Origin: Escherichia coli
GTDB lineage: Bacteria > Pseudomonadota > Gammaproteobacteria > Enterobacterales > Enterobacteriaceae
Reading direction: 5' to 3' (one strand)
Assembly (NCBI RefSeq): GCF_003334255.1
Contig: NZ_QOWU01000256.1
DNA length: 352 nucleotides
Numbering within the stretch: the stretch's first letter is position 1; each line of letters begins with the position of its first letter. Positions 1 through 352 of the stretch are shown here, piece by piece. Under the pieces are notes generated by a model. That model saw only the letters and a list, made by a program, of their open reading frames with translations, did no database searches and was not told where the DNA came from. The position numbers were made by a program, and so were the translations under genes.

Positions 1-12
1 GTCGCGGTTTTC

Positions 13-153
13 CTACTGCTTACACTGTAAGAACGCCGCAAACTCCGCTCCCCACAAATTCAGCCGGAACTCACACAACGAGCCGTGTAACATCCAGATG
101 GTGAAGATTACCGTCATACAAATTGTGACGGTGATGAGCGATTTTTGCGACAT
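13..153 (-). CDS. hok: Hok/Gef-family type I toxin, small inner-membrane protein, 46 aa (HokA-like)
   Basis: Minus-strand ATG at 153..151 and TAG stop at 15..13. An in-frame TAG lies 10 codons upstream (183..181) with no other start between, so the start is unambiguous. AGGAG Shine-Dalgarno (plus 163..167) sits 9 nt upstream of the ATG. Translation: MSQKSLITVTICMTVIFTIWMLHGSLCEFRLNLWGAEFAAFLQCKQ. Short polar N-terminus (MSQK), an ~18-residue hydrophobic segment, then a tail with the SLCE and AAFL.CK motifs characteristic of Hok/Gef proteins. Family assignment is from recalled HokA/HokE sequences, not a database search. Symbol is family-level only; the paralog is not assigned. Confidence 0.85.
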   Translation of the reverse strand: MSQKSLITVTICMTVIFTIWMLHGSLCEFRLNLWGAEFAAFLQCKQ

Positions 154-256
154 AACGCTTGTCTCCTGAGTGGAGAGGCGCTAACCTACTACTTGTGAAG
201 GTTGTACGGTCAGGGCCTCGGGTTAACATTAAAGTTGACTCGGGGCCTTTCCACAT
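71..256 (-). CDS. mok: mok-like overlapping reading frame (61 aa), probable translational-coupling ORF, not an independent protein
   Basis: The ORF from the supplied track (MWKGPESTLMLTRGPDRTTFTSSRLAPLHSGDKRYVAKIAHHRHNL...). It starts 103 nt upstream of the hok ATG, runs across the hok Shine-Dalgarno and start, and ends at TGA 73..71 inside hok in a different frame. This is the arrangement known for mok in plasmid R1 hok/sok. Its His/Arg/Thr-rich sequence has no recognisable fold. Start is uncertain: a GAAGG lies only 4 nt before the ATG at 256, and an alternative in-frame ATG exists at 229..227. Confidence 0.45.
   Translation of the reverse strand: MWKGPESTLMLTRGPDRTTFTSSRLAPLHSGDKRYVAKIAHHRHNLYDGNLHHLDVTRLVV
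159..187 (+). promoter_or_regulatory. Candidate sigma70 promoter for a Sok-like antisense RNA
   Basis: Plus strand: -35-like TTGTCT (159..164), 17-nt spacer (165..181), -10-like TAACCT (182..187) with T at position 1, A at 2 and T at 6. Predicted start around 191..195. The -35 overlaps the hok Shine-Dalgarno region on the opposite strand, as I recall for the Sok promoter in R1. Hexamers are moderate matches only. Confidence 0.4.
163..167 (-). promoter_or_regulatory. Shine-Dalgarno (ribosome-binding site) of hok
   Basis: Minus-strand AGGAG (plus-strand ctcct at 163..167) with a 9-nt spacer to the hok ATG at 153. Confidence 0.6.
194..252 (+). ncRNA. sok: Candidate Sok-like cis-encoded antisense RNA (type I antitoxin), about 57-60 nt
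   Basis: Lies between the candidate promoter (159..187) and a stem-loop plus TTT (214..250). Predicted architecture is a roughly 20-nt unstructured 5' tail (194..213) followed by a single 3' hairpin. It is fully complementary to the mok/hok mRNA from 4 nt downstream of the mok ATG to about 60 nt further on. Size and layout resemble Sok of plasmid R1 (about 64 nt). Ends are approximate. Confidence 0.4.
214..252 (+). terminator. Stem-loop with short U-run; putative intrinsic terminator and structural domain of the antisense RNA
   Basis: Plus-strand 214..227 (GGCCTCGGGTTAAC) pairs with 234..247 (GTTGACTCGGGGCC): 14 bp, 11 Watson-Crick plus 3 G-U wobbles (218/243, 221/240, 224/237), 6-nt loop ATTAAA (228..233), followed by TTTCC (248..252). 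On the minus-strand transcript the three wobbles become A-C mismatches. The U-run is only 3 nt, so termination efficiency is uncertain. Confidence 0.35.
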
Positions 257-306
257 CAGGCCTTCAGGTTCTCCCTCCAGCCATCAGCCGAAAGGCACCC
301 GCGCAT

Positions 307-335
307 AATCTACGATTTTTGCCCTGCACGGGCAA
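307..335 (-). promoter_or_regulatory. Candidate promoter for the mok/hok mRNA
   Basis: Minus strand: -35-like TTGCCC (revcomp of plus 330..335), 17-nt spacer, -10-like TAGATT (revcomp of plus 307..312). Predicted start near plus 300, giving an mRNA beginning GGGUGCCUUUCGGC... about 44 nt upstream of the mok ATG. Weak hexamers; the true promoter could lie beyond the right edge. Confidence 0.3.
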
Positions 336-336
336 C

Positions 337-352
337 AAAAAACCCGCCATCA
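337..352 (-). terminator. Possible 3' arm and T-tract of an intrinsic terminator for an upstream minus-strand gene, truncated by the window edge
   Basis: Minus strand reads ...TGATGGCGGG TTTTTTGTT: a GC-rich segment (plus 343..348) followed by a T6 tract (plus 337..342). The matching 5' arm would lie beyond position 352 and is not visible. Confidence 0.2.

What the first reader, a model, noticed from the sequence alone, without database searches (positions are those of the whole stretch)
13..335. Complete-looking hok/mok/sok-like type I toxin-antitoxin module packed into about 320 bp
Four elements sit in the relative positions expected for a hok/sok locus: a Hok-family toxin ORF, an upstream overlapping frame, an antisense promoter overlapping the toxin ribosome-binding site, and an antisense stem-loop RNA. 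Nothing in the reading frames suggests the toxin is disrupted, so the module may be functional.
Basis: partly seen in the sequence, partly recalled or inferred. Interest (0 to 1): 0.7.

Follow-up and report, generated by a model that had tools for sequence, protein, structure and literature searches.

The report
Known prophage hok/sok toxin-antitoxin locus
The window holds most of an already catalogued Hok-family toxin gene and its antisense Sok-type RNA, carried next to lom in 933W-like Shiga-toxin phages. It is ordinary, except that the "mok" leader frame seen here is not conserved in relatives and the 3' regulatory end of the module lies outside the window.

Summary
The finding is real but ordinary, and two of its claims need correcting.

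**What holds up**
- The minus-strand ORF 153..13 is a Hok/Gef toxin (Pfam E=4.7e-8; PHROG 251 E=2.8e-24).
- It is identical to peptide 72_1589 of a published Hok catalogue, which was cloned and reported toxic.
- The plus-strand Sok elements are present. The promoter is TTGTCT(159-164)-17 nt-TAACCT(182-187), with the same -10 and geometry as the annotated sokW of phage 933W.
- A 15-bp hairpin at 213-248 is far more stable on the Sok strand than on the mRNA strand, in all 28 family variants.

**Corrections**
- The 61-codon "mok-like" ORF (256..71) reaches the hok start in only 5 of 56 family representatives. 933W's own copy has no such frame, so mok is not a conserved part of this subfamily.
- The module is not complete within 13..335. 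The conserved 3' hairpin and the fbi element that pairs with the mRNA 5' end lie at mRNA +298..+353, beyond window position 1. They are present in the source contig.

**Context**
- The locus sits between lom and L0129 of 933W-like phages.
- It is distinct from the published hokW-sokW locus of the same phages.

**Verdict:** already known, low interest. The only modestly novel angle is possible mok-independent control.

The parts
337..348 (-). 3' half and T-run of the intrinsic terminator of the upstream lom gene (GGCGGGTTTTTT). Not part of the module; it marks the module's upstream border.
   Evidence: Terminator-like site at L001 6361..6341 on the - strand. lom is annotated just upstream. Homology among family members in other contexts stops at the -35.
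307..335 (-). Predicted hok mRNA promoter: -35 TTGCCC (335..330), 17-nt spacer, -10 TAGATT (312..307), then 6 nt to the predicted +1.
   Evidence: Read from the sequence. TTG of the -35 and TAnAnT of the -10 are kept at fixed spacing in family copies whose upstream flanks are unrelated. Not mapped experimentally.
284..300 (-). mRNA 5' end (predicted +1 = G300) and tac-like element GGGUGCCUUUCGGCUGA.
   Evidence: RF01794 model position 1 aligns at 300. The element is nearly invariant in the family. It pairs with the fbi element outside the window: 96.7% and 79.9% of cells paired in the two helices, the second with compensatory changes. It is closed 5'-3' in the MFE of the full-length RNA.
259..282 (-). 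Small leader hairpin (GGCUGG...GAAGGCC) inside the tac/ucb stem.
   Evidence: RNAalifold consensus pairs 18-22/39-43 and 26-28/33-35. Pair 26-35 occurs as GC:25, GU:19 and AU:11.
242..257 (-). ucb-like box GAAAGGCCCC (251..242), complementary to the mRNA 5' end, plus the upstream AUG at 256..254. On the + strand this stretch is the 3' arm and tail of the Sok hairpin.
   Evidence: Inverted repeat I4, 90% complementary. It forms the tac/ucb stem in the RNAalifold consensus and in the MFE of the 3'-truncated RNA.
71..256 (-). Present here, but judged fortuitous.
   Evidence: ORF listed. It has no NCBIfam or PHROG hit. From the same AUG the frame stops after 1-29 codons in most relatives and reaches the hok AUG in 5 of 56. 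Five representatives lack the AUG and eight have AUG followed directly by a stop.
159..187 (+). Sok promoter: -35 TTGTCT (159-164), 17-nt spacer, -10 TAACCT (182-187). The -35 overlaps the hok SD.
   Evidence: Same hexamers and spacing as upstream of the annotated sokW RNA of 933W. A -10 mutation in sokW abolishes antitoxin activity (PMC8621323). The -10 block is the most conserved segment.
194..253 (+). Predicted Sok antisense RNA, about 60 nt: an unpaired 5' tail of about 18 nt followed by a 15-bp hairpin (213-248) and UUU. The ends are predicted, not mapped.
   Evidence: The TSS is placed by analogy with sokW, 6 nt after the -10. Fold is -28.6 kcal/mol, z=-4.5. The hairpin is more stable on this strand in 28 of 28 unique variants, mean -21.8 vs -13.4 kcal/mol.
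175..219 (-). Predicted Sok-target hairpin of the processed mRNA (+82..+126), closed by GAGGC/GCCUC, with a hypervariable upper stem and loop.
   Evidence: Forms in the MFE of the truncated RNA. All 36 unique family variants fold as one hairpin with compensatory changes in the upper stem, mean z=-4.1. The segment +89..+113 is the most variable of the locus at 0.75 bits.
163..178 (-). hok ribosome-binding region: anti-SD CCUCUCC (178..172), a short loop, and SD AGGAG (167..163).
   Evidence: The SD is paired with the anti-SD in the full-length MFE. In-silico P(unpaired SD) is 0.01 full-length, 0.12 truncated and 0.01 truncated with the Sok site blocked. This is weak evidence, because the hokW control does not reproduce textbook behaviour.
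13..153 (-). hok toxin gene, 46 aa: MSQKSLITVTICMTVIFTIWMLHGSLCEFRLNLWGAEFAAFLQCKQ.
   Evidence: Pfam PF01848 E=4.7e-8 and PHROG 251 E=2.8e-24. Annotated 'Hok/Gef family protein' WP_000078907.1 in RefSeq. Identical to 72_1589, which was cloned and was not among the three non-toxic constructs. dN/dS is about 0.26.
1..3 (-). First 3 nt (GAC) of the conserved 3'-UTR hairpin GACGGGGAC-GAAA-GUCCCCGUC. The rest of the hairpin and the fbi element (CAGCCGAUAUGGCACCC) lie beyond the window.
   Evidence: Continuation read in the source contig L219 and in L001. The hairpin is 99.6% paired, with 5 pairs showing compensatory changes.

Best explanation
The window carries a Hok-family type I toxin-antitoxin locus. 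It is a moron inserted between lom and the L0129-like gene of 933W-like (Sepvirinae) Shiga-toxin phages. It is separate from the hokW-sokW locus of the same phages.

Shown or strongly supported:
- A weak constitutive-type promoter (335..307, minus strand) would give a hok mRNA of about 353 nt starting at G300.
- In the full-length RNA the 5' tac-like element pairs with a 3' fbi-like element that lies outside the window, and the hok SD is held by an upstream anti-SD. This RNA is expected to be inert.
- From the opposite strand, the promoter at 159-187 would give a Sok RNA of about 60 nt (about 194-253). It consists of a free 5' tail and a strong hairpin, and is fully complementary to the hok leader (+48..+107).
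- The toxin is a 46-aa inner-membrane peptide of the Hok/Gef family, and the identical peptide kills E. coli on induction.

Inferred from the R1 paradigm and from folding:
- Slow 3' trimming removes the fbi element, and tac re-pairs with the ucb-like box (251..242).
- The leader then refolds into a target hairpin (219..175) whose loop is recognised by the Sok 5' tail.
- The Sok-mRNA duplex is then cleaved by RNase III and translation is prevented.
- When Sok, which is presumed unstable, is no longer made, the processed mRNA is translated and Hok damages the membrane.

Departure from the paradigm: the overlapping mok frame present in this window is not conserved in the subfamily. Sok most likely controls hok here without translational coupling to a leader ORF. 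The likeliest route is that Sok prevents the target hairpin from sequestering the anti-SD, which then re-closes the hok SD, acting together with duplex cleavage. I put about 0.9 on 'hok/sok-type locus with a Sok antisense RNA', about 0.7 on 'mok is not a functional part', and about 0.35 on the specific SD-switch mechanism.
For: - Toxin identity. The identical peptide was tested.
- Genomic place and distinction from hokW.
- Exact source contig.
- hok under purifying selection: 46 aa in 54 of 56 representatives, dN/dS about 0.26, and codon-position entropy 3>1>2.
- Sok promoter identical in -10 and geometry to annotated sokW. The sokW -10 mutation abolishes antitoxin function: PMC8621323.
- Sok hairpin strand asymmetry in 28 of 28 variants. 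Window z-scores of -4.5 vs -1.4.
- tac/fbi pairing and the 3' hairpin, with covariation and clean slide controls.
- Full-length MFE closed 5'-3', z=-6.8.
- Truncated RNA forms the tac/ucb stem and the target hairpin.
- mok not conserved.
- RF01794 hit in the right strand and register.
Against: - No transcript data were available. The promoters, TSSs, Sok 3' end and 3' processing are all predicted.
- The Sok -10 (TAACCT) matches the consensus at only 3 of 6 positions, and the generic scan did not call either promoter.
- The Sok hairpin is followed by only three U residues, so it is a weak terminator.
- RF01794 scores 35.8 bits, below its gathering score of 59.
- The family sample was retrieved with a pattern in the hok 3' coding region, so it is biased, and its sequences are related. 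The p-values are therefore inflated.
- The in-silico SD accessibility change is small (0.01 to 0.12), and the same calculation on the bona fide hokW locus does not reproduce textbook behaviour. The mok-independent switch is therefore weakly supported.
- In this particular window a 61-codon frame with an SD-like GAAGG is present, so coupling in this lineage cannot be excluded.
Confidence: 0.75

Rival explanations
1. A fully canonical hok/mok/sok locus. In this lineage the 61-codon ORF (256..71) is a working mok whose translation opens the hok SD, and Sok acts by blocking mok initiation.
For: The ORF exists, overlaps hok in another frame, and ends inside hok as mok does. Its AUG has an SD-like GAAGG 4 nt upstream and abuts the predicted Sok 3' end, so a duplex could occlude it. 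The same ORF recurs in 5 of 56 representatives.
Against: The frame is closed in 51 of 56 representatives, including 933W's own copy, and hok stays intact in 54 of the 56. Eight representatives have AUG followed directly by a stop, and five have no AUG. About 20% of sequences would keep this frame open by chance. In the true mokW the AUG sits in the Sok 5'-tail target, whereas here it sits at the other end of the Sok region. The predicted protein has no family hit.
Confidence: 0.15
2. An inactive relic. The toxin gene is intact, but the locus is not expressed or not regulated, like several chromosomal hok copies of E. coli K-12.
For: Both promoters are weak by consensus. One family copy is split by an IS element (L017). 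One copy lacks the 5' part of the module (L188). No expression data were found.
Against: dN/dS is about 0.26, with 46 aa kept in 54 of 56 representatives. Both promoters, tac, fbi and the Sok -10 are kept across unrelated genomic contexts. Compensatory changes maintain three helices. The window's elements match the family consensus, and the peptide is toxic when expressed.
Confidence: 0.08
3. Chance resemblance: a short hydrophobic ORF and a GC-rich hairpin with no relation to hok/sok.
For: The ORF is only 46 aa, the Rfam hit is below its gathering score, and the generic promoter and terminator scans found nothing.
Against: PHROG 251 E=2.8e-24 and Pfam E=4.7e-8. There are matches in 1750 of 5426 E. 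coli genomes, annotated Hok/Gef. The RF01794 hit has E=1e-6, covers the full model length, and lies in the correct register.
Confidence: 0.01

Closest known systems
hok/mok/sok of plasmid R1 (type I toxin-antitoxin paradigm; described in PMC9841398 and PMC4147584)
   Same: Hok-family membrane toxin (30% identity). A long, structured mRNA with 5'-3' tac/fbi pairing, a ucb-like box and a 3' hairpin. A cis-antisense Sok of about 60 nt, made of a 5' tail plus hairpin, whose promoter overlaps the hok SD region. A target hairpin in the leader.
   Different: The toxin is 46 aa, not 52. There is no conserved mok frame and no start codon in the Sok 5'-tail target. The locus is carried by phages, not a plasmid. 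RF01794 scores only 35.8 bits.
hokW/mokW/sokW of phage 933W / Sp5 (AF125520 58460-58734; Takada et al. 2021, PMC8621323)
   Same: Found in the same phage genomes. The Sok -10 hexamer TAACCT and the -35/-10 spacing are identical, and the overall architecture is the same. hokW-sokW was shown experimentally to be a type I TA that aids phage release.
   Different: It is a different locus, about 13 kb away near the right end of the phage genome. HokW is 51 aa and 37% identical over 35 aa. It has an annotated mokW whose AUG lies in the Sok tail target. RF01794 scores 113.5 bits there. The locus in the window is unannotated in AF125520 and untested as a system.
Hok cluster 72 (peptides 72_1589 and 72_1621) of Escalera-Maurer et al., bioRxiv 10.1101/2025.08.07.668861
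   Same: 72_1589 is identical in sequence to the window's toxin. The cluster is listed as a high-abundance cluster. The peptide was cloned under an arabinose promoter and is not among the three non-toxic constructs.
   Different: That study dealt only with coding sequences. It explicitly did not define the Mok, Sok or mRNA elements.
tisB/istR-1 (type I TA without a leader ORF; summarised in PMC4147584)
   Same: A possible functional analogy only. The antitoxin pairs well upstream of a structurally closed toxin SD, and no overlapping leader ORF is needed.
   Different: There is no sequence relationship. IstR-1 is divergently encoded and acts at a ribosome standby site. Nothing here shows a standby mechanism.

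Membership tests
[quoted passage not shown] | Toxin belongs to the Hok/Gef protein family (PF01848) | tested here: met
   Pfam HOK_GEF E=4.7e-8, residues 8-44. PHROG 251 at 85.8 bits over the full length.
[quoted passage not shown] | The peptide is toxic when expressed | not testable with these tools
   From the literature: the identical peptide 72_1589 was cloned (LRP157), and only 19_179, 60_1482 and 69_1540 of 45 constructs were non-toxic.
[quoted passage not shown] | A cis-encoded antisense Sok RNA with its own promoter, complementary to the hok leader | tested here: met
   This holds at sequence level only. The promoter at 159-187 is homologous to the sokW promoter. A hairpin is selected on the Sok strand in 28 of 28 variants, with z=-4.5. 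The transcript itself has not been observed.
[quoted passage not shown] | [quoted passage not shown] | tested here: not met
   An ORF is present in the window (256..71), but it reaches hok in only 5 of 56 representatives and is absent in every frame in 933W's copy. The functional requirement was not testable.
[quoted passage not shown] | Long-range tac/fbi pairing of the mRNA 5' and 3' ends | tested here: met
   The two helices are 96.7% and 79.9% paired, the second with compensatory changes, and slid controls give 33-52%. The MFE is closed 5'-3'. The fbi element lies outside the window but is present in the source contig.
[quoted passage not shown] | 3' processing followed by refolding (tac/ucb stem, target hairpin) | tested here: inconclusive
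   Predicted by RNAalifold and by the MFE of the truncated RNA. Processing itself cannot be tested here.
Rfam RF01794 (sok; in fact the hok-leader model) | Score at or above the gathering threshold of 59 bits | tested here: not met
   35.8 bits, E=1.1e-6, covering the full model 1-157 on the mRNA-sense strand. The bona fide hokW locus scores 113.5 bits on the same relative strand.
NCBIfam NF007290 HokA (equivalog) | Score at or above the curated cut-off of 89 bits | tested here: not met
   38.4 bits. It is a Hok-family member but not HokA.
hokW-sokW locus of Sp5/933W (Takada 2021) | Same locus or an orthologous toxin | tested here: not met
   hokW lies at 933W 58460-58615, while the window's homologue lies at 933W 45459-45812 in the lom-L0129 gap. 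The toxins are 37% identical over 35 aa.

The most novel reading that the evidence does not exclude
This widespread, phage-borne Hok subfamily (cluster 72: 46-aa toxins in 933W-like, P2-like and lambdoid prophages and some plasmids) has dispensed with mok. Sok would control hok directly through an RNA switch. In the processed mRNA the target hairpin captures the anti-SD and frees the hok SD. Sok pairing would dissolve that hairpin so that the anti-SD re-closes the SD. The hypervariable yet structure-preserving loop and upper stem would act as an address that keeps co-resident copies orthogonal.
Probability: 0.3. Interest if true: 0.45.

Novelty: already known. Interest (0 to 1): 0.22.

Why it matters
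It matters mainly for annotation. 933W-like Shiga-toxin phages carry two different hok/sok-type loci, and only one of them (hokW-sokW) has been studied. The second, described here, is unannotated in the reference 933W record.

If the mok-independent control were confirmed, it would show that translational coupling to a leader ORF, a textbook feature of hok/sok, is not obligatory in the family. It would also give a natural set of orthogonal Sok/target pairs. Otherwise this is one more copy of a very common prophage moron.

Tried and rejected
1. The generic sigma-70 and terminator scan of the window found nothing. The promoters were instead identified by homology with sokW and by conservation.

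Only the E. albertii hit (L024) looked relevant, and it was not followed up.

3. I first assumed the locus was the published hokW-sokW. Primer sequences in PMC8621323 and the 933W annotation showed that is a different locus.

4. I looked for any alternative mok in all frames, with ATG, GTG and TTG and, in a subset, CTG, ATT, ATC and ATA starts. No start or frame was consistent.

5. In-silico SD accessibility in full-length, truncated and Sok-bound states changed in the expected direction. The hokW control did not behave as the literature describes, so I treat this as weak evidence only.

6. Weak Rfam hits (Hrs1, CRISPR-DR12, P9; E=4-9) were dismissed as chance.

7. Literature searches for this specific locus (hok + lom + Shiga; T1TAdb) found no study of its RNAs.
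Full report
**What is in the window**

The window has five ORFs of at least 20 aa. The minus-strand ORF 153..13 encodes MSQKSLITVTICMTVIFTIWMLHGSLCEFRLNLWGAEFAAFLQCKQ.
- It matches Pfam HOK_GEF (E=4.7e-8) and PHROG 251 'MokW-like host killing' over its whole length (85.8 bits, E=2.8e-24).
- It scores 38.4 bits on the NCBIfam HokA equivalog, far below the cut-off of 89. It is therefore a Hok-family protein but not HokA.
- It is 30% identical to R1 Hok and 37% identical over 35 aa to HokW.

**Where it comes from**

- The window is 100% identical to IMG/VR contig IMGVR_UViG_2657245500_000006 (L219 3326-3677). That contig is syntenic with the tail/lom region of phage 933W.
- It is 99.4% identical to an E. 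coli prophage and to Escherichia phage PhiR5_2, and about 91-96% identical to many Stx-converting phages.
- In all of these it lies between lom and the L0129-like gene.
- In the original 933W record (AF125520) this 429-bp gap is unannotated, although 933W has a 91% identical copy there. RefSeq/PGAP annotates the ORF as 'Hok/Gef family protein'.
- Related copies at 77-85% identity occur in other settings: at the end of P2-like prophages after ogr, between J and the tail-fibre gene of lambdoid prophages, on an IncI1 plasmid, and, in one case, split by an IS element.
- Matches occur in 1750 of 5426 complete E. coli genomes, with up to 9 places per genome.

**It is not the published hokW-sokW**

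- Takada et al. (PMC8621323) showed that hokW-sokW of Sp5 is a type I TA that aids phage release.
- Their primers and the 933W annotation place hokW/mokW/sokW at 933W 58460-58734.
- That locus encodes a 51-aa toxin (MKQQKAM...) and lies about 13 kb from the locus studied here.
- These phages therefore carry two different hok-type loci.

**The toxin is already known and tested**

- The catalogue of Escalera-Maurer et al. (bioRxiv 10.1101/2025.08.07.668861) lists the identical peptide as 72_1589, in a 'high-abundance cluster'. It was cloned as LRP157.
- Of 45 constructs tested, only 19_179, 60_1482 and 69_1540 were non-toxic.
- The authors state that they did not define the Mok, Sok or mRNA elements.

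**Family sample**

I gathered copies from E. coli genomes, plasmids and IMG/VR. I reduced them to 56 representatives below 97% identity and aligned them with L001 as alignment A1. There are two caveats. The IMG/VR copies were retrieved with a 22-nt pattern in the hok 3' coding region, so that stretch is invariant by construction. The sequences are also related, so significance values are inflated.

**hok is under selection**

- The ORF is 46 aa in 54 of 56 representatives.
- Pairwise dN/dS over the first 38 codons is about 0.26 and below 1 in all 843 pairs.
- Column entropy is highest at codon position 3 and lowest at position 2.

**The Sok side**

- On the plus strand, TTGTCT (159-164), 17 nt, TAACCT (182-187) has the same arrangement as upstream of the annotated sokW RNA of 933W, which is TTGCCT, 17 nt, TAACCT, 6 nt, +1.
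- In sokW a -10 mutation abolishes antitoxin activity.
- The -35 overlaps the hok SD (AGGAG, 167..163).
- The block containing the -10 is the most conserved part of the locus (0.11 bits).
- By analogy the Sok start is near 194-195.
- Plus strand 192-255 folds into a free 5' tail followed by a 15-bp hairpin (-28.6 kcal/mol, z=-4.5). The opposite strand gives z=-1.4.
- Across the family the hairpin is more stable on the Sok strand in all 28 unique variants (mean -21.8 vs -13.4 kcal/mol). Several pairs are G-U on that strand and become C-A mismatches on the mRNA strand.
- This asymmetry is good evidence that the plus-strand RNA structure is selected.
- The hairpin is followed by only UUU, so the 3' end is uncertain.

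- RF01794 ('sok') does not hit the plus strand. It hits the minus strand 300..142 over the full model at 35.8 bits (E=1e-6), below the gathering score of 59.
- On the bona fide hokW locus the same model scores 113.5 bits, also on the hok-mRNA-sense strand, running from the mRNA 5' end to the hok start.
- The model is therefore a model of the hok leader. The window is a divergent leader in the correct register that fails the curated threshold.

**The mRNA and its ends**

- Homology between family members in unrelated contexts begins at the -35 (TTGCCC, 335..330; -10 TAGATT, 312..307) and ends at GGCACCC, about 52 nt beyond window position 1.
- The 5' end GGGUGCC...CGGCUGA (300..284) pairs with CAGCCG...GGCACCC at +336..+353. 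The two helices are 96.7% and 79.9% paired, the second with compensatory changes.
- A 3'-UTR hairpin at +298..+319 is 99.6% paired, with 5 of 9 pairs showing compensatory changes. Slid controls give 33-52% paired.
- The full-length RNA from the near-identical L001 folds closed 5' to 3' at -150.3 kcal/mol, z=-6.8, with the hok SD paired to an upstream CCUCUCC.
- The window ends 3 nt into the 3' hairpin. The rest follows directly in the source contig.
- The module is thus about 390 bp, and it is cut by the window, not by biology.

**Refolding**

- RNAalifold on A1 and the MFE of an RNA lacking the last 34 nt both give a stem between the 5' end and GAAAGGCCCC (251..242). This is the analogue of the tac/ucb stem of the processed R1 mRNA.
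- The truncated RNA also forms a hairpin at +82..+126 (219..175), closed by GAGGC/GCCUC.
- All 36 unique family variants of this segment fold as that single hairpin, with compensatory changes in the upper stem (for example UAC/GUA, CUUC/GAAG, UUCUUC/GAAGAA) and a mean z of -4.1.
- Its 5' arm and loop are what the Sok 5' tail is complementary to. The segment +89..+113 is the most variable in the locus (0.75 bits).
- In the two tandem copies in one contig (L207), the hok CDS (141/141) and the -10-to-ATG region (41/41) are identical, but the tail target differs at 8 of 20 positions. The copy pairs in L238 and L019 show the same local divergence, though their CDSs also differ.

**The 'mok' frame**

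- The 61-codon ORF 256..71 starts at an AUG at mRNA +45 and overlaps hok in the -1 frame.
- From the same AUG the frame ends after 1-29 codons in most relatives. It reaches the hok AUG in only 5 of 56 representatives. Eight have AUG followed directly by a stop and five have no AUG.
- 933W's own copy has no upstream ORF in any frame with any start-like codon.
- About 20% of sequences would keep a 34-codon frame open by chance.
- In the true mokW the AUG lies within the first 9 nt of the Sok-complementary region. The corresponding region of this family has no conserved start codon.
- The predicted 61-aa protein has no NCBIfam or PHROG match.
- In R1, mok translation up to the hok SD is required for hok translation (PMC9841398; PMC4147584). 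That requirement cannot hold for most members of this subfamily.

**How it probably works**

- The parts shared with R1 are inferred by homology and folding. These are the inert full-length mRNA, 3' trimming, refolding, Sok pairing through its 5' tail to the target loop, and RNase III cleavage.
- Sok covers +48..+107 and ends about 25 nt upstream of the hok SD, so direct occlusion is unlikely.
- A possible mok-independent route follows from the folds. In the processed RNA, GAGGC of the target hairpin takes GCCUC away from the anti-SD. Sok pairing would release it so that it re-closes the SD.
- Partition-function estimates give P(SD unpaired) of 0.01 (full-length), 0.12 (truncated) and 0.01 (truncated with the Sok site blocked). 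The change goes in this direction in 55 and 56 of 57 sequences respectively.
- The same calculation on hokW does not reproduce the textbook picture. I regard this mechanism as a hypothesis, not a result.

**Biological role**

The role is unknown. By analogy it could stabilise the prophage, exclude other phages, or, like hokW-sokW, contribute to lysis after induction. None of this was testable here.

**Verdict**

- The locus is a known, widely distributed and annotated kind of element, and its toxin has been tested.
- The new points are descriptive: it is a second hok locus of 933W-like phages, mok is not conserved, the Sok target is hypervariable but structure-preserving, and the true module boundaries are now defined.

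Noticed in passing
L004 7460-7813 (= AF125520 45459-45812) and L004 20461-20735: Phage 933W carries two different hok-type loci. One is the annotated hokW/mokW/sokW near the right end. The other is an unannotated copy, 91% identical to the window, in the lom-L0129 gap.
   Followed up: yes
window 142-300 (-); L004 20611-20785 (-): Rfam RF01794, named 'sok antitoxin', matches the hok-mRNA-sense strand from the mRNA 5' end to the hok start, even in the bona fide hokW locus (113.5 bits). It is a model of the hok leader, antisense to Sok.
   Followed up: yes
L207 4318-4682 and 5040-5404; also L238 and L019: Tandem copies of the module occur in one contig. In L207 the two copies have identical hok CDS (141/141) and -10-to-ATG region (41/41), but their Sok 5'-tail targets differ at 8 of 20 positions. 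This suggests diversification of the antisense recognition region between co-resident copies.
   Followed up: partly
L001 5948-5964 (just beyond window position 1): The annotated start codon of the downstream L0129-like gene (L001 5956) lies inside the fbi element (CCGAUAUGGCACCC). No terminator-like site follows the fbi element in this phage context, whereas in the copies examined at the end of P2-like prophages (L009-L013, L016) a hairpin with a T-run follows it. The hok mRNA may read into L0129, or the annotated start may be wrong.
   Followed up: no
window 1-10 (+), continuing to L001 5981-6004: Read on the plus strand, the hok 3'-UTR hairpin is followed by CGGTTTTCCT and scores as an intrinsic terminator. 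It could stop transcription converging on hok.
   Followed up: no
window 337-352 (-): The window's right end holds the 3' half and T-run of the lom terminator (full site at L001 6361..6341).
   Followed up: yes
L017 271-1597: A family copy in E. coli A39 is interrupted by an IS (integrase core domain pseudogene) between the leader and the hok gene.
   Followed up: no
L188 around 9946: One IMG/VR copy lacks the promoter and tac region, with unrelated sequence upstream of the ucb-like box. It appears to be a 5'-truncated, probably dead copy.
   Followed up: no
A1 columns 108-121 with 347-360 (mRNA about +100..+113 with +322..+335): RNAalifold predicts a long-range helix between the region just upstream of the Sok -10 and the 3' UTR, with compensatory changes (pair 121-347 as AU:28 and GC:23; pair 120-348 as GC:40 and AU:9). 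This is possibly the analogue of a dcb-type lock in the full-length mRNA.
   Followed up: partly
L024 9946-9960: The 15-mer from the mRNA 5' end also occurs in Escherichia albertii NBRC 107761. The other hits listed for that scan were in unrelated phyla and looked like chance matches.
   Followed up: no
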